Positions 36,342-51,402 of a stretch of DNA of 64,000 nucleotides are shown in pieces. The position numbers and the translations under genes are program-made. The first letter of the stretch is position 1. The number at the start of each line of letters is the position of its first letter. The notes under the pieces are model-generated. The model had not been told where the DNA came from and did not search any database. It worked only from the letters and a program-made list of their open reading frames with translations. Source of the DNA: a virus; the IMG/VR virus record IMGVR_UViG_3300042922_000836, positions 73,095-137,094 of that record; one strand, 5' to 3'.

Positions 36342-36401
36342 GGTAATGACAGCCACCTTTGAGGTGGCTATTTCGGCTAATCAAGCCATCATCAGATTAC
36401 C
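36342..36401 (-). ncRNA. Type I hammerhead ribozyme
   Basis: - strand reads GGUAAU CUGAUGA U GGCU-UGAUU-AGCC GAAA UAGCCACC-UCAAA-GGUGGCUG UC AUUACC: full catalytic core, three stems, GUC cleavage triplet. Confidence 0.9.
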
Positions 36402-44609: not shown

Positions 44610-45070
44610 ATTGTCAATTTATCGATTTTTGCTTTGAGGATTTCTTTTCTTTCAGAAATTTTATTAATTTCAGTTCTTATATCATTTAACATAGACATAA
44701 ATTCAGCTAAAACTGAACCATCGAATGAATTATCAATTACTGAAAAGAACCGTTTATATTCAAATAATCTTACTTCATTAGTTCCCAATTTTTGATTGAT
44801 TTTATCATTTAATTTTTCAAACAAATAGAAAAGATGAGATTCTTCTACTTCCATAATTTCGTTTTTTAAGCGATTCATGTCTTCAGAATTATAACCAAGG
44901 TCTTTCAATGTATCATATACACCGTCATAATAGCTTTGATATGCAAGATAATCATCATCGTGTTCTTTTTCCTTATACATTCCGTAAGCATTTTTGAATC
45001 TTTTTTCAATTTGCGATTTCTGTTTTTTTGTCATGGTAAAACCACCTTTAAAAAATTTTATTTACATTTA

Positions 45071-45099
45071 TATAACATTCAGAATTAAATATTCCTTAC
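45071..45099 (-). promoter_or_regulatory. Promoter-like motif, copy 16
   Basis: GTAAGGAA-N15-GTTATA. Confidence 0.8.
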
Positions 45100-45608
45100 A
45101 AACAACATTTTCGCCTCATCAACATATTTATACTGATTTTGAACAGTCAACCATAAGGTAGATGTTTTAAGCGAGGTATCTATCTTTGCGTATGCATCCG
45201 CAAAGTGTTGTTCAACCTCTAAATTCGGAGTCGCATATATTCTTATATATTCATCCCTTTCTTTTAAATTTCGGTACTACACGCAGTTACTTTCACTGCC
45301 CTCATCCTCTATCGGCTCGTCAGCCTCACCTCTACCTCGTACCATTTTAACCTCTTTCATTAATTTGTTTATTGATTTTAATTATTTATTCAGTAAAAGT
45401 GTTTCATAAAAATCACCCCTTTTGCTTGATAAATTTGGCGAAATCGTCATCAATATTCATCATACTACAATTCAAAACTCATTCTATAATTCATCATTTT
45501 TCCATTTAAATTAAACTACCACTTGATAACCACCCTCTTTCAATTATGTAATTTTAAAAATCTTTAATTCCTACTAATTTTTTTCATAGAAATCACCTCT
45601 TTCACTTA

Positions 45609-45637
45609 TATAACGTTTCAAACATTTAATTCCTTAC
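45609..45637 (-). promoter_or_regulatory. Promoter-like motif, copy 17
   Basis: GTAAGGAA-N15-GTTATA. Confidence 0.8.
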
Positions 45638-45741
45638 CAAGTCATAAAACCACCCCTTTAAAGAATTTTTGCATGGATTATAAAACAATCATCTTTATTT
45701 CCCAACAGATGAATACACCGTTGAATTTTGTTTTACATTTA

Positions 45742-45770
45742 TATAACGTTTGCTTTGAGTATTTCCTTAC
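45742..45770 (-). promoter_or_regulatory. Promoter-like motif, copy 18
   Basis: GTAAGGAA-N15-GTTATA. Confidence 0.8.
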
Positions 45771-45836
45771 GGTAAATTATCCGTACAATCGAAGGCTTGA
45801 AGATTTATTTCCTCAAGCCATCTCAACACCTATAAT

Positions 45837-46374: not shown

Positions 46375-46403
46375 TATAATACTTGAATTTAAGATTTCCT
46401 TAC
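46375..46403 (-). promoter_or_regulatory. Promoter-like motif, copy 19
   Basis: GTAAGGAA-N15-ATTATA. Confidence 0.75.
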
Positions 46404-46752
46404 GCAACGATTTCAAGGACTTTCATTCGGTCAGCCAATATCCATTGACCGCCTTGTGACTCAGGTCTATCATATGTAGAAAAATTTTCAACTTCGACTT
46501 TTACCCAAACTCTCGCACAGCCATTTTTAGGATTTTTACTTAAATGTGGTGCATATGGTGTAAAGGTACAATGCCATCCTTGACGAACCGCAAAACCTTT
46601 TGTCGGAATACATTCAGACTTCAACCATTGACCAACAGGAACAACATTTTTTGCACCAATAAACAAAGCACCCAGAGTTCCGTTTTTTCTTAATTTCATC
46701 AGTTTATAAGCTATCATTTTCAAAACCAACCTTTAAATTTTAATTACACTTA

Positions 46753-46781
46753 TATAACAATTGAATTAATTGATTCCTTAC
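46753..46781 (-). promoter_or_regulatory. Promoter-like motif, copy 20
   Basis: GTAAGGAA-N15-GTTATA. Confidence 0.8.
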
Positions 46782-47089
46782 GATATATAGCAATTATTTT
46801 CGATTCTGCCTGTTTGCATGGTATACCATGACATTACAAGCACATGATTATCAGTTTCCGCAATATCAATTTTTGTAGAGCCTTCGCTACCGCAAAATAT
46901 TCCGCAAAAAGGTGTTCCATCCTCATTGACCATAGTCAAGCCATTGTTTGCCAGAATTGTCTGTACCTCGTCAACTGCGACCTCATCACGATAGATCACA
47001 TCAGACAACTGATAATTACATTTTTTTATTGCCAACTTTAAACTTCCCATAATAGTTACCTCTTTTTTAATAATTTTGTGTTACACTTA

Positions 47090-47118
47090 TATAACAACAG
47101 AAAATTAGTTTTCCTTAC
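47090..47118 (-). promoter_or_regulatory. Promoter-like motif, copy 21
   Basis: GTAAGGAA-N15-GTTATA. Confidence 0.8.
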
Positions 47119-47120
47119 GC

Positions 47121-47780
47121 AAAATTATCTGCATAATAAAAAGCATGAAAATATCATGCTCTTGATTATGTATAAAATTTGTAATAATCGGCATGTAAGG
47201 CAATAGCAATCTCTATTTACTACTGCCTTATATGGAAACTAACAGATAACTGTTTGAATTTTTCCATACTACACCGACTACCTTTTTTTCATAGATTTTA
47301 TCACATCCTTTCATTGTACTCATCCCCATGACTTATAAACCAAACTTTAAATCATTATGTAAATTTTATTTGATTTTTTTGTTTGTTTTATCACTCTTTA
47401 CTCTTGACCGCTAAGAGTAAAGACTCGCCCACTGTTGCCAGTAAGAGAGTTATCGCCATGGGTACATTTTAACGAATTTTTCCAGAAACTAAGGTTATCG
47501 TGATTCTTACCCTATAGCGGTCAAAACAAAATACTTGCAATTACTTAATTTTGTCTATAGTTCCCATAAAAGGGAGTAAGAAAGTCATTCCTTCCAAAGT
47601 TTGCCATACAGGAGATTCTGTGAAAATTTCGCCAAAATGATGATTATTTGTTTGGTACAGTATTCGCTATTACGTGGCAACCGTATTAGTACCATTTAAG
47701 CTATAAATTTTTGTAATGATTTTTTGCATAATTTAAAACACTAAATATTTTTAATATTTTAAACTACATAAAAAAACTTT
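47121..47780 (-). ncRNA. Candidate large structured non-coding RNA
   Basis: No ORF of 60 aa or more; at least six hairpins, a GNRA-capped stem with G-U pairs on the - strand, a 10-nt loop-distal complementarity; directly downstream of five tandem promoter motifs. Confidence 0.6.
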
Positions 47781-47787
47781 ACATTTA

Positions 47788-48139
47788 TATAACACTTGAA
47801 AATCATTTTTCCTTACAAGCTTTTTTTACTGATTTTTAAATGTTTATTGCTTACGATAATATAACATTTAAAAACTTAATTTCCTTACATTGAATTTTTA
47901 TTGATTTTTCCATGCAATTATATAACATTTATAATCTTAATTTCCTTACATATTGCATTTAAGGAAATTTTAAAAATATACTTTACAATTATATAACACT
48001 TATTTTTTATGATTCCTTACAGATCGTAGTGTAACACTTTTGTCACACATTTTTAACTAAAATTTACCGATTGCATATTTGAATTATTTGTAAATTAATC
48101 TTTACAATAATATAACACTTAAAAACACTGATTCCTTAC
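47788..48139 (-). repeat. Tandem stack of five promoter-like motifs (copies 22-26)
   Basis: Copies at 47788-47816, 47860-47888, 47921-47949, 47992-48020, 48111-48139; all GTAAGGAA-N15-GTTATA. Confidence 0.9.
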
Positions 48140-48167
48140 ACCTAAAATTTACCAGTAAAAATATGGT

Positions 48168-48195
48168 AAAAAATAGGAGGCATCACTGCCTCCTA
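48168..48195 (-). terminator. Intrinsic terminator of the sigma-like gene
   Basis: TAGGAGGCA-GTGA-TGCCTCCTA followed by TTTTTT on the - strand. Confidence 0.85.
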
Positions 48196-48218
48196 AATCT
48201 TACCAGTATCGTCTGGGA

Positions 48219-49607
48219 TTATTTACCAAAATGTTTTTTAACCATTTTTTGGAATTTTTCTATTAAATACCATTTTTCAAGCTTGTTACAATATATGGTA
48301 TATAAGGAAATATTATCCATATATTCAATATCACTTTCTGTGTATTCCGACTCTTGACCGACTTTTAAATTATTATACACTTCGTGAGATTCAAGCCACT
48401 TGAAATAATTTACCATATTATGGTTAAAAGCACCGTCTATCACATGGTGTATATTAAAGTTACCGTCTTTTATCGCAGTATGTGAATTTTCGAGTTTGTC
48501 AAGGAACTTTGTACCCTTTGTGACTTTTTTGTGTCCTGTCATCAATTCTTCAATAGCTTGATAATCTTTACGTCTGTATGACTTAATTGCGTCAATATCT
48601 TTAAATTTCAATGCCACTTCACGAATTCGTGACATATGACCGCTTACGGTCTTCATACTGCATCCAACTTTTTCCGCTATTGCCAGATCCTGCCAGCCAT
48701 ATGACCGATATTTTAAAATTTGTGCCTGTCTGGGAGTAATTTCCTTTAAAAAGGAATTAATTAACTCATTTTCTCCAGATTTTTCCAGTAGCCTGTCAAT
48801 CTCGGAATTGACACAAATCTGGGAATAAATACCATTTTCACCGTTCTCATCAAGTGTGTCTTCAATGTAAAGTTTTCTTGGAACATAATCAACTTTTCTG
48901 TGAAGTTTTTCTTCCTCAATTAAACTGTCAATATTTACCAGTGTAACATTTTTATCGGCAATCATGCTGGCAATCTCTTCCAGTTTAGCGGTTGAAACTT
49001 CCACTTTTTGGTGCTTTAGGATTTTTCTGGCAATAATCAAATTATTGTAAAGTTTGGTATTTTCGGTATTTTTTACCATTTTATTATTTCCGTATAAGGA
49101 ATTTTTTACCATATTACAAGCTTTTAAAAATATTGATTTCATGGTATTTTTTGCCAGTATCATATCAGCATATTCACTGGAATTTAATTCCAGTCCGTCT
49201 TTTAATTTTTGCTCCAGTTTATACCAGTAATTTAAGGTTTCAATGGGTATTTTTACCAGTTCTTCATACATTGCTAAATAGGCAATATTTACCAGATCCA
49301 TAGAGTCATTGTTGATGCTTGACAAATTTTGGAAATTATTTACCATTTTAAGGTTATGAACTGACGGATTTTTTGACATAATATATTTGCAAGAATAACA
49401 TGCACATGTCACAGAAATGTCATATAGAATTTTCATTCTTAAAAGCGGGTATTTGGTAAACTTTTCCTTAATTTCTGCATTTACTTCTGCCAAAGTTTGG
49501 TAATTTTCAGGTACTACTAAATTTTCCATATTCTGGGCGATTAAAGGGTTTTTGGAATTTTCTTCCAGTGTGAGATTCTCCGAGTAAATTTTTACAGTTT
49601 TTTCCAT
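48219..49607 (-). CDS. Putative phage-encoded alternative sigma factor (region 2-like plus region 4/LuxR HTH, long insertions and C-terminal extension)
   Basis: SMDLVNIAYLAMYEE resembles ECF region 2.2; ITPRQAQILKYRSYGWQDLAIAEKVGCSMKTVSGHMSRIRE is a sigma-4/LuxR HTH. Confidence 0.65.
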   Translation of the reverse strand: MEKTVKIYSENLTLEENSKNPLIAQNMENLVVPENYQTLAEVNAEIKEKFTKYPLLRMKILYDISVTCACYSCKYIMSKNPSVHNLKMVNNFQNLSSINNDSMDLVNIAYLAMYEELVKIPIETLNYWYKLEQKLKDGLELNSSEYADMILAKNTMKSIFLKACNMVKNSLYGNNKMVKNTENTKLYNNLIIARKILKHQKVEVSTAKLEEIASMIADKNVTLVNIDSLIEEEKLHRKVDYVPRKLYIEDTLDENGENGIYSQICVNSEIDRLLEKSGENELINSFLKEITPRQAQILKYRSYGWQDLAIAEKVGCSMKTVSGHMSRIREVALKFKDIDAIKSYRRKDYQAIEELMTGHKKVTKGTKFLDKLENSHTAIKDGNFNIHHVIDGAFNHNMVNYFKWLESHEVYNNLKVGQESEYTESDIEYMDNISLYTIYCNKLEKWYLIEKFQKMVKKHFGK

Positions 49608-50610: not shown

Positions 50611-51402
50611 ATGATAAATACTTATGTTTCAGGCAATAGCACAATAACAGTTAATCCCGCTTTCAGAAGAGTAGTTGAACAGTGGAAACAGAGAAACAAA
50701 GTCGAGAAAGCCACTGTAGAGAATAACTTTCCGAAACAGGAGTTCACAGCAAAGCCTACAGCGAAATATTCTCTGTATACAACAGATGGCAGACCGAAAC
50801 CAAAGTGCGGAGATGCAATTAAAGACAAGGACACCATACAGGCAATAAAAGAAGCTCTCCTTAACTCAGGCAAATTCGGATACCGCAACTACCTTATATA
50901 TACAGTGGGCATAAATGTAGGTCGCAGAGCTGGTGACTTGCTTAAACTGAAGGTCAGTGATGTAATGTCCAAAGGAAACATAAAGTGTGAGATTGTCCAT
51001 GTCGAGGAAAAGACAGGCAAGATTATAGAGTTCTACTTTAACGATACAATCAGAAATGCAATTGCAGAATACTTGAATTCACAGCCTGACCTTAAAGCTA
51101 CAGATTACCTGTTCAAAAGCCACAAGGGTGATGGTAGGTTGACCACAAAAGCATACTGGAGAATACTTAAAGATGTACAGAACCAGTTGCAACTCACAGA
51201 TCACCTGTCAACACACAGTATGCGTAAAACCTTTGGATATCACAAGTACCAAGAATACAAAGGTCAGCAAATAGAGGGCGGGTTTGATGTGGTAGATATG
51301 TTACAGGATGCATACGGACACAGCAGTCGCAAACAGACCATGACTTATATAGGTATAAGCAAGGAAAACAAAAAGAAGTTGTATTGTGACTCTACACTAT
51401 AA
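50611..51402 (+). CDS. Tyrosine recombinase (catalytic-domain type)
   Basis: GRRAGDL (R), EEKTGK (K), HSMRKT (HxxR), GHSS (H), TMTYIG (Y). Confidence 0.92.
   Translation: MINTYVSGNSTITVNPAFRRVVEQWKQRNKVEKATVENNFPKQEFTAKPTAKYSLYTTDGRPKPKCGDAIKDKDTIQAIKEALLNSGKFGYRNYLIYTVGINVGRRAGDLLKLKVSDVMSKGNIKCEIVHVEEKTGKIIEFYFNDTIRNAIAEYLNSQPDLKATDYLFKSHKGDGRLTTKAYWRILKDVQNQLQLTDHLSTHSMRKTFGYHKYQEYKGQQIEGGFDVVDMLQDAYGHSSRKQTMTYIGISKENKKKLYCDSTL

What the first reader, a model, noticed from the sequence alone, without database searches (positions are those of the whole stretch)
47121..47780. About 650-nt ORF-free, highly structured RNA candidate fed by five tandem promoters
Seen: hairpins at about 47130-47172, 47192-47234, 47231-47267, 47396-47422 (perfect 10-bp stem) and 47653-47694. 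CUUACUG-GCAA-CAGUGGG (about 47428-47445) has a GNRA loop and G-U pairs that work only on the - strand. The loop of the 47396 hairpin (ttgaccgcta, about 47404-47413) is perfectly complementary to tagcggtcaa at 47515-47524, a pseudoknot or switch signature. Further long-range pairs: 47315-47330 with 47457-47466, and 47231-47241 with 47558-47568. Known: Firmicutes phages and prophages carry large structured RNAs of this size range (ROOL, GOLLD). Inference: this would be the most heavily transcribed product of the phage sigma regulon, possibly a scaffold, decoy or antitoxin mimic.
Basis: partly seen in the sequence, partly recalled or inferred. Interest (0 to 1): 0.82.

Follow-up and report, generated by a model that had tools for sequence, protein, structure and literature searches.

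The report
Orphan 650-nt folded phage RNA candidate
A gene-free stretch of an uncultured soil phage related to Bacillus phage SPbeta looks like a separate gene for a 650-base, very strongly folded non-coding RNA, but no relative of it was found, so its reality and role remain untested.

Summary
47121-47780 has no credible ORF. It lies behind five tandem copies of the phage's own promoter-like element and ends at a terminator-like hairpin just before the next promoter copy.

On the minus strand it folds 56 kcal/mol better than its shuffles. That makes it the strongest of 96 equal tiles of the window; the next best is 24 kcal/mol. The excess is spread over a 5' hairpin, three domains and the terminator, and it is weaker on the plus strand.

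A neighbouring ORF-poor stretch (45035-45780) keeps ribosome-binding sites with stub ORFs and is not structured. Simple gene decay is therefore a poor explanation.

No Rfam family matches, so it is not ROOL or GOLLD. I found no homologue in two public DNA collections, three exact-word scans, 50 related phage records and about 440 bacterial genomes. No RNA data exist. Covariation, expression and the proposed pseudoknot are therefore untested.

The "sigma" label for the upstream 462-aa protein is only weakly supported.

Earlier notes of this scan describe a similar architecture (promoter array plus folded RNA) in unrelated phages, not this sequence.

Verdict: a good but unproven candidate for a new large phage non-coding RNA.

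The parts
48219..49607 (-). Upstream gene: a 462-aa divergent sigma-like or LuxR-HTH protein. It is the first gene of the minus-strand early arm and the candidate factor for the repeated promoter element.
   Evidence: ORF. GerE HTH E 6.4e-7. TIGR02937 sigma70-ECF superfamily E 1.5e-6, below its cut-off. Only 13 relatives among 1.84 billion representatives. AlphaFold model pLDDT 62.4. Foldseek: no hit at E <= 0.001, but 49 of the 50 rows listed are RNA-polymerase/sigma entries.
48165..48195 (-). Terminator-like hairpin plus T-run that closes the sigma-like gene's transcript.
   Evidence: 9 pairs, 5 G-C, tail TTTTTTACCA.
47785..48139 (-). Array of five promoter-like elements (GTAAGGAA, 14 nt, TGTTATATAA) at 48139-48108, 48020-47989, 47949-47918, 47888-47857 and 47816-47785. 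The array is 17-20% G+C.
   Evidence: families D1-D3; G+C. None of the five is followed by an SD-led ORF of at least 30 aa.
47130..47778 (-). Predicted non-coding transcript of about 650 nt. The 5' end is inferred at 6-8 nt after the -10-like TATATAA; the 3' end is in the U-run after the terminator hairpin.
   Evidence: MFE -178.9 against -125.3 for shuffles, z -6.4. Best of 96 tiles. The ends are inferred and were not measured.
47720..47775 (-). 5'-terminal A/U-rich hairpin (19 + 6 bp).
   Evidence: P 0.95 and 0.65. z -5.4 on the minus strand, -0.9 on the plus strand.
47465..47639 (-). Domain I, closed by a 21-bp interrupted helix (47639-47617 with 47486-47465). Its interior is poorly defined and contains 47524-47515, the complement of the domain II loop.
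   Evidence: closing helix P 0.93-0.98; inner helices 0.18-0.40. z -2.9.
47325..47462 (-). Domain II, a three-way junction closed by 47462-47455 with 47332-47325. It holds the GCAA-loop hairpin 47450-47423, the 10-bp hairpin 47422-47396 with a 7-nt loop, and the A/U hairpin 47391-47335.
   Evidence: P 1.00, 0.87-1.00, 0.96. z -7.95, 0 of 100 shuffles as stable.
47171..47293 (-). Domain III, a Y-shaped domain closed by the 12-bp helix 47282-47271 with 47194-47183. It holds hairpins 47269-47230 and 47229-47197.
   Evidence: P 0.91-0.96. z -6.4 on the minus strand, -2.5 on the plus strand.
47130..47170 (-). Terminator-like hairpin (core AGCAUGA/UCAUGCU) followed by UUUUAUUAU.
   Evidence: P 0.98. 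z -5.9. The scan reports this hairpin on the plus strand; the minus-strand U-run was read.
47087..47118 (-). The next promoter-element copy. It drives the 90-aa gene 47050..46778, so the downstream gene does not depend on the ORF-free unit.
   Evidence: SD-led ATG 36 nt after the element.

Best explanation
The stretch is a free-standing non-coding RNA gene of an SPbeta-like temperate phage.

What the sequence shows:
- A terminator closes the upstream sigma-like gene.
- Five tandem copies of the phage's own early promoter element follow.
- Then come about 650 nt with no translatable ORF.
- On the transcribed strand these fold into a 5'-terminal hairpin, three independently stable domains and a terminator hairpin.
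- Directly behind the terminator sits the promoter copy of the next gene.

What is inferred:
- After induction the phage-specific transcription factor, probably the 462-aa sigma-like protein, fires these promoters.
- The RNA is capped by hairpins at both ends, so it should resist the host's 5' and 3' exonucleases and accumulate.
- It acts in trans as a structured RNA, most likely as a protein-binding scaffold or decoy or as a self-assembling RNA in the manner of ROOL and GOLLD. It probably does not act as an antisense regulator.

No expression data and no homologues exist, so the existence of the transcript and any function remain unproven.
For: - Architecture: the unit is bracketed by two terminator-like hairpins, with 5 promoter-element copies in front and the next gene's own copy behind.
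- The element behaves as a promoter. The -35-like and -10-like parts are 17 nt apart with a TG before the -10. All 26 copies are co-oriented. 19 of 26 are followed at 16-112 nt by an SD-led ORF of at least 30 aa.
- Non-coding.
- Folding: -178.9 against -125.3 kcal/mol, z -6.4. It is the best of 96 tiles, at -56 kcal/mol against -24 for the runner-up; the tiles have mean z -0.76 and sd 1.6.
- The excess is spread over separate parts: z -7.95, -6.4, -5.9, -5.4 and -2.9.
- It is strand-specific. The plus strand gives -135 kcal/mol, z -4.7. The MFE has 28 G-U pairs of 219 on the minus strand against 17 of 205 on the plus strand.
- 191-203 of the 219 pairs persist when the 5' end is moved to each upstream promoter.
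- G+C is 0.33-0.38 in the core against 0.17-0.20 in the promoter array.
- Contrast: the ORF-poor stretch 45035-45780 keeps SD+ATG stubs and has z -0.5.
- No antisense target beyond chance was found in the phage genome: the longest match is 15 nt.
Against: - The RNA is an orphan. I found no homologue by blastn in the phage or plasmid collections, in 48 SPbeta-like virus records, in 50 bacterial genomes with a YonO relative or in 391 scored genomes of the family of G052.
- nhmmer on 1.1 Mb of fetched loci also found nothing. A domain II covariance model gave a best E of about 0.1 in 50 records and only its own sequence in 85 sources.
- There is therefore no covariation and no evidence of purifying selection.
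- Several helices are long and near-perfect, which is less typical of ornate conserved RNAs.
- The five copies are only 61-119 bp apart, so they can hardly all be occupied at once; this is my inference from the usual size of RNA polymerase footprints.
- The four 'empty' copies upstream and the stub cassettes at 45035-45780 show that this arm does accumulate debris.
Confidence: 0.45

Rival explanations
1. Non-functional filler: a decayed gene cassette or cassettes left between promoter copies, whose stable fold is unselected.
For: The sequence is an orphan with no relatives. Four gene-less promoter copies lie directly upstream. A second ORF-poor stretch at 45035-45780 holds truncated cassettes. 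A degenerate look-alike of the element's first part lies inside the stretch (family D5, 47578-47596).
Against: The known debris stretch keeps SD+start stubs and folds like its shuffles (z -0.5). This stretch has no such stubs, is the extreme outlier of 96 tiles, and has excess stability in five separate parts on one strand.
Confidence: 0.2
2. A cis-acting leader. The structured RNA and its terminal hairpin would form a conditional terminator, switch or antitermination element. This would set how much transcription from the promoter battery reads on into the early genes.
For: It lies at the head of the 20-kb early arm. An alternative 28-bp pairing between 47531-47502 and 47426-47396 (-27.2 kcal/mol against -11.9 for the hairpin) could act as a switch. 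Earlier notes of this scan describe phage early leaders of this size.
Against: The next gene has its own promoter copy immediately after the hairpin. No Rfam riboswitch or leader family matches. No boxA-like word lies in 47051-48218; the two consensus forms were recalled from memory, and hits elsewhere in the window are at chance level. Enforcing the alternative helix costs about 15 kcal/mol overall.
Confidence: 0.12
3. Part of a transcription-activated or RNA-primed replication origin, of the ColE1 RNA II or T7 primary-origin type. The promoters would give a structured pre-primer next to a very A+T-rich stretch that unwinds easily.
For: The adjacent 360-bp array is 17-20% G+C. The locus lies 2-3 kb from the point where the two gene arms diverge and the cumulative GC skew flattens. 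A long, ORF-free, structured transcript from strong promoters is the anatomy of ColE1 RNA II (established knowledge, recalled).
Against: No DnaA-box-like word lies in 47051-48218: 0 of the 20 matches in the window, and the window total is below chance. The only repeats are the promoter copies, which also precede 19 ordinary genes. The GC-skew turn coincides with the switch of gene orientation, so it is not independent evidence. A terminator ends the RNA before any obvious priming site.
Confidence: 0.08
4. One or more small-protein genes (for example a type I toxin) with a structured mRNA.
For: Short ORFs exist: 33 and 36 aa on the minus strand, and a 28-aa hydrophobic one on the plus strand. 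SPbeta itself carries small toxin genes under its repeated promoter element, e.g. spbT (passages of PMC10516654).
Against: None of these ORFs has an SD, while all 9 control gene starts have one. The minus-strand peptides have no membrane-length hydrophobic run (my reading). The hydrophobic plus-strand ORF lies on the T-rich strand, antisense to the promoters.
Confidence: 0.05

Closest known systems
ROOL and GOLLD large ornate RNAs of phages and prophages
   Same: All are large non-coding RNAs of unknown function: ROOL averages 581 nt, and this candidate is about 650 nt. They are carried by phages or prophages of Firmicutes and others and have multi-domain folds (passages of PMC5737381; search listing of the cryo-EM preprint 10.1101/2024.12.08.627333).
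   Different: There is no match to any Rfam model, even at E <= 10, inside 47121-47780. No tRNA gene is nearby. There are no homologues, so no conserved nucleotides or covarying pseudoknots are known. The helices here are longer and more perfect. The promoter battery in front has no counterpart known to me for ROOL or GOLLD (recalled).
SPbeta early-gene control: the SPBRE repeated element in early promoters, bound by the tyrosine-recombinase-fold repressor MrpR, and the AimX ncRNA
   Same: The phage is SPbeta-like: its YonO is 52% identical to SPbeta's, and it has a PolIII-alpha-like protein, a large serine recombinase and a ribonucleotide reductase. A short repeated element marks many early promoters. 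A tyrosine-recombinase-family gene (50611-51402) lies divergent from the early arm. SPbeta also uses a non-coding RNA in its lysis-lysogeny control (passages of PMC10516654).
   Different: The element's sequence is specific to this phage: it is absent from 50 related records, and IMG/VR holds only single chance copies. Binding by the recombinase-like protein is untested. By my reading of the translation this protein keeps recombinase-type catalytic residues, which MrpR lacks according to the paper. Nothing links this RNA to AimX.
ColE1 RNA II pre-primer and the T7 primary origin (tandem promoters plus an A+T-rich stretch)
   Same: A long, ORF-free, highly structured transcript from strong promoters lies beside very A+T-rich DNA. 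Loop-to-distant-segment complementarity could control its folding (established knowledge, recalled).
   Different: No antisense RNA I-like gene, no origin signals and no priming site were identified. A terminator ends the RNA.
Gene-free promoter arrays with folded RNAs noted earlier in this scan in unrelated phages (e1-935973; phiEco32-like leaders e1-163407, e1-208463, e1-223559)
   Same: Repeated phage promoters lie in front of a 0.3-0.9-kb strongly folded RNA that matches no Rfam family.
   Different: Those are other sequences in other phages, and I did not see them. The phiEco32-like cases are described as carrying boxA antitermination signals, which are not found here. These are unchecked AI notes, not evidence.

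Membership tests
ROOL / GOLLD (Rfam families) | Match to the family covariance model at the gathering score | tested here: not met
   0 matches at gathering in the whole window. No match of any family inside 47121-47780 even at E <= 10.
ROOL / GOLLD (Rfam families) | Often next to tRNA genes | tested here: not met
   ARAGORN finds 0 tRNA or tmRNA genes in the 64-kb window. The feature is taken from passages of PMC5737381.
ROOL / GOLLD (Rfam families) | Carried by phages or prophages; size of several hundred nucleotides | tested here: met
   The record is a 137-kb SPbeta-like virus record. The predicted RNA is about 650 nt.
Structured non-coding RNA gene (generic) | Compensatory base changes in homologues | not testable with these tools
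   No homologue was found. The public collections can only be scanned for exact words.
Structured non-coding RNA gene (generic) | A discrete transcript with defined ends | not testable with these tools
   The one run listed is on record as DNA; no listed holder is RNA. Nothing could be laid on the stretch.
Structured non-coding RNA gene (generic) | Folding energy beyond composition and beyond the rest of the genome, on the transcribed strand | tested here: met
   z -6.4. Rank 1 of 96 tiles. The plus strand is weaker.
rRNA-type boxA antitermination leader | A boxA word downstream of the promoters | tested here: not met
   No match with up to 2 mismatches in 47051-48218 for two consensus forms recalled from memory; matches elsewhere are at chance level.
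Sigma-70 family factor (the upstream 462-aa protein) | Region 4 helix-turn-helix | tested here: met
   GerE E 6.4e-7, above the Pfam cut-off. Relatives carry GerE and Sigma70_r4.
Sigma-70 family factor (the upstream 462-aa protein) | Region 2 (core binding and -10 recognition) | tested here: inconclusive
   No Pfam or NCBIfam region-2 hit. TIGR02937 matches only profile positions 85-159 and falls below its cut-off. Foldseek has 0 hits at E <= 0.001; the 49 RNA-polymerase/sigma rows have E 0.005-0.4 and TM at most 0.15. The model's pLDDT is 62.
DnaA-dependent replication origin | A cluster of DnaA boxes | tested here: not met
   0 of the window's 20 one-mismatch matches lie in 47051-48218; the window total is below the shuffle mean of 28.
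Type I toxin-antitoxin locus | A small hydrophobic ORF with a ribosome-binding site on the transcribed strand | tested here: not met

The most novel reading that the evidence does not exclude
This is the founding member of a new class of large multi-domain phage RNAs. It would be made in bulk from a battery of phage-factor-dependent promoters at the very start of the lytic programme, be stabilised by hairpins at both ends, and act in trans. It could sequester a host protein such as a ribonuclease, the host's RNA polymerase holoenzyme or an RNA-sensing defence protein, or it could assemble into an RNA-only particle as ROOL and GOLLD do. The GC-rich loop-to-domain-I complementarity (47413-47404 with 47524-47515) would be either a tertiary contact within one molecule or the contact between molecules. 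Together with the similar promoter-array-plus-RNA units noted in unrelated phages, it would point to a recurrent phage design.
Probability: 0.25. Interest if true: 0.75.

Novelty: new variant of a known kind. Interest (0 to 1): 0.5.

Why it matters
Large structured RNAs of phages (GOLLD, ROOL) are among the least understood RNA classes, and few are known.

A new one would give an experimentally tractable case. It would have a clear transcription unit, a dedicated promoter battery and a candidate dedicated transcription factor, in a phage group with a laboratory model (SPbeta). The unit and the factor gene could be moved together into a model host to ask what such RNAs do.

If the stretch is only debris, it is a caution. 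Extreme single-sequence folding scores can arise without function.

Tried and rejected
Homology searches, all negative.
- blastn 'distant' against the phage collection and the plasmid collection found nothing.
- BLAST in 48 SPbeta-like virus records gave only 14-101-nt matches, mostly A/T-rich, with a best E of 8e-5 on an A-rich run.
- BLAST in 50 bacterial genomes holding a YonO relative gave 3 short matches.
- BLAST in 401 genomes of the family of G052 scored 391; 22 had 29-79-nt matches, all in the A/U-rich parts (query 1-87 or 381-449), and only 2 candidates per genome were scored.
- nhmmer against 184 fetched loci (1.1 Mb) found nothing.
- The covariance model R1 of domain II was built from the single sequence with its predicted fold, so it has little power. 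Its best E was about 0.1 in 50 records, and it found only itself in 85 sources.
- Exact 19-20-nt words from the RNA gave 0 hits in metagenome contigs twice and 0 in viral contigs.

Looking for relatives through neighbouring genes and the repeated element.
- The sigma-like protein has no loci, only itself among 7523 candidates and 13 distant relatives.
- The recombinase-like protein has no loci.
- The 109-aa protein has 409 relatives. I fetched 80 loci with an alignment of 29 of them, and none holds the RNA.
- The promoter element is absent from 50 related records. In IMG/VR there are 22 contigs with one copy each.
- YonO relatives in genome contigs are at most 61% identical.

Expression.
- No RNA holder is listed; the one run is a soil metagenome on record as DNA.
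- Read laying laid 0 contigs.

Analogous units in the two nearest records (G001, G002).
- ORF-free gaps there fold at most 31 kcal/mol below their shuffles, with 6 shuffles per 400-nt window.
- I did not establish any positional equivalence and dropped this line.
- The repeated 10-mers of G002 turned out to lie just before start codons.

Other readings tested and rejected.
- Antisense targets in the phage genome: longest 15 nt, which I judged chance level.
- boxA words and DnaA boxes.
- Other genetic codes.

Limits on the literature: papers were seen only as passages (PMC10516654, PMC5737381) or as search listings. Supplements were not opened; the cow-rumen-4 motif is described only in the supplement of PMC5737381.

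Full report
CONTEXT. The window is bases 73095-137094 of a 137,094-bp IMG/VR virus record with direct terminal repeats, found in a soil metagenome. A script found a 127-bp terminal repeat and 28.9% G+C.

The phage is SPbeta-like. It has an 842-aa YonO-type single-subunit RNA polymerase, 52% identical to SPbeta yonO and 60% to the best phage record. It also has a PolIII-alpha-like polymerase, a large serine recombinase and a ribonucleotide reductase.

Genes from about 49607 down to base 1 of the window lie on the minus strand. Genes from 50611 onward lie on the plus strand.

THE REPEATED ELEMENT. GTAAGGAA, 14 nt, TGTTATATAA occurs 26 times with up to 3 mismatches. All copies are on the minus strand, all lie between 27235 and 48139, and 0.29 copies are expected by chance.
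- Its two conserved parts have sigma-70 geometry: a -35-like word, 17 nt, then TATATA preceded by TG. This is my reading.
- 19 of the 26 copies are followed at 16-112 nt by a Shine-Dalgarno-led ORF of at least 30 aa.
- The seven exceptions are the five tandem copies at 48139-47785 and two copies in a stub-ORF stretch at 45035-45780.
- The element is private to this phage. It has 0 copies in 50 related records, and IMG/VR shows only single chance copies in 22 contigs.

In SPbeta a comparable repeated element (SPBRE) lies in about ten early promoters and is bound by MrpR, a repressor with a tyrosine-recombinase fold (passages of PMC10516654). Here a 263-aa tyrosine-recombinase-family gene lies divergent from the early arm. 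The element may therefore combine a promoter and an operator; this is inference.

THE FACTOR. The gene just upstream (48219-49607) encodes a 462-aa protein.
- It has a GerE/region-4 type HTH.
- It has a sub-threshold sigma70-ECF superfamily match.
- It has only 13 distant relatives among 1.84 billion representatives.
- Its AlphaFold model is mediocre, with pLDDT 62.4.
- The model has no Foldseek hit at E <= 0.001. However, 49 of the 50 listed rows are RNA polymerase holoenzyme or sigma entries.

'Sigma-like' is plausible but not shown.

THE STRETCH ITSELF. It is ORF-free in every sensible sense. Read on the minus strand, the order of features is:
1. the terminator of the sigma-like gene (48195-48165);
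2. five element copies;
3. about 650 nt;
4. a hairpin plus U-run (47170-47130);
5. the element copy of the next gene (47118-47087) and its SD-led ATG at 47050.

RNAfold gives -178.9 kcal/mol for the minus strand against -125.3 +/- 8.4 for 20 dinucleotide shuffles, z -6.4. The plus strand gives -135.0 against -110.5, z -4.7.

As a within-genome control I tiled the window's minus strand in 96 tiles of 660 nt with 8 shuffles each.
- The candidate lies 56 kcal/mol below its shuffles (pooled-sd z -9.4).
- The runner-up lies 24 kcal/mol below (z -4.1).
- The tiles have mean z -0.76 and sd 1.6.

The excess is not due to one hairpin. With 100 shuffles each:

| Part | z, minus strand | z, plus strand |
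|---|---|---|
| Domain II | -7.95 | -5.4 |
| Domain III | -6.4 | -2.5 |
| Terminator | -5.9 | -4.4 |
| 5' hairpin | -5.4 | -0.9 |
| Domain I | -2.9 | -2.55 |
| Surround of hairpin 47694-47653 | -0.75 | -1.7 |

Further points on the fold:
- The MFE has 28 G-U pairs of 219.
- The helices have high pair probabilities.
- 191-203 of the 219 pairs survive when the 5' end is moved to any upstream promoter copy.

Core G+C is 0.33-0.38, like coding DNA, while the promoter array is 0.17-0.20.

THE PSEUDOKNOT OR SWITCH CLAIM. The 10-nt complement is exact. It extends to a 28-bp imperfect duplex of -27.2 kcal/mol that competes with the -11.9 kcal/mol hairpin.

Perfect 10-mers as such are not unusual: 14% of 500 shuffles reach the observed count. 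A G/C-rich one is rare, at 0.9% of 2000 shuffles, but that criterion was chosen after seeing it.

Enforcing the helix gives -163.6 kcal/mol against -178.9 for the MFE. It is a reasonable hypothesis and nothing more.

WHAT IT IS NOT.
- It is in no Rfam family.
- No tRNA gene is near.
- It has no boxA word and no DnaA boxes.
- It has no tandem repeats inside.
- It has no antisense target beyond chance.
- It has no paralogue of domain II in its own genome: the only match of the domain II model in the window and L002-L005 is the stretch itself.

DEBRIS OR GENE? The same arm holds a 640-bp ORF-poor stretch (45035-45780). By my reading, it contains four good ribosome-binding sites, each followed by a start codon and only 3-11 codons. 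That is clear cassette debris, and it folds like its shuffles (z -0.5).

The candidate differs on both counts: it has no such stubs and its folding is extreme. This is my main argument against simple decay.

THE WEAKNESS. The RNA is an orphan. All searches listed under Tried and rejected were negative. There is therefore no covariation, no conservation and no expression evidence.

Earlier notes of this scan describe promoter arrays in front of folded RNAs in unrelated phages. That is a parallel, not support.

VERDICT. I put 0.45 on a free-standing structured non-coding RNA. The rest is divided among debris (0.20), a cis-acting leader (0.12), an origin element (0.08), small proteins (0.05) and other readings.

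Noticed in passing
window 45035-45780 (minus strand): A second ORF-poor stretch holds two promoter-element copies (45770, 45637). It also has several strong SD+start sites followed by only 3-11 codons; one ORF (ATG ACT TGG TAA) runs straight into the next element. This looks like truncated gene cassettes. It folds like its shuffles (z -0.5).
   Followed up: partly
window 47844-47901 (minus strand): The Rfam motif cow-rumen-4 (RF02948) gives a weak match (22 bits, E 1.1) on one promoter-element copy. The family consensus carries GUAAGGAA in its hairpin loop followed by an A/U-rich TATA-like run. That 'RNA motif' may therefore be a phage promoter-like DNA element of the same kind.
   Followed up: no
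window 50611-51402 (plus strand): A 263-aa tyrosine-recombinase-family protein lies divergent from the 26-copy element array. Its best NCBIfam match is XerA/integron-integrase type (E 5e-18, below cut-off). By eye it keeps recombinase-type R, H-x-x-R, H and Y residues. It could be an MrpR-like repressor of the element or an active recombinase acting on it. Its relatives lie mid-genome in streptococcal phages.
   Followed up: partly
window 48057-48068, 48141-48157, 48192-48208: Three direct copies of CTAAAATTTACC(AGTA) flank the first promoter copy and overlap the terminator of the sigma-like gene (families D8 and D10). They are a possible regulator binding site. A first-reader note also reports dense TTACCA hexamers here.
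   Followed up: no
own genome 46547-46980 (L004:6547-6980), outside the window: A 434-bp ORF-free gap lies just before the large serine recombinase gene (L004:6981-8501). It folds 29-32 kcal/mol below its shuffles on both strands. It is a DNA-level inverted-repeat region and a candidate attP or regulatory site.
   Followed up: no
window 46400-46729 (minus strand): This 109-aa protein belongs to a widespread family with no Pfam or NCBIfam model. It has 409 relatives up to 74% identical and 24 invariant residues, including several W, H, P and G. The family occurs in many unrelated viral contigs.
   Followed up: partly
window 36342-36401: A first-reader note (e1-6147873) claims a hammerhead ribozyme here. 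The Rfam scan of the whole window at gathering scores found no family at all, so the claim is not confirmed at that threshold.
   Followed up: no
related record G002 (L274-L281): The word ATACATAAGGA occurs 15 or more times, nearly all on one strand. In the clearest cases it lies directly behind a TATAAT-like word and just ahead of a start codon. It is a different repeated expression signal in a related phage.
   Followed up: no
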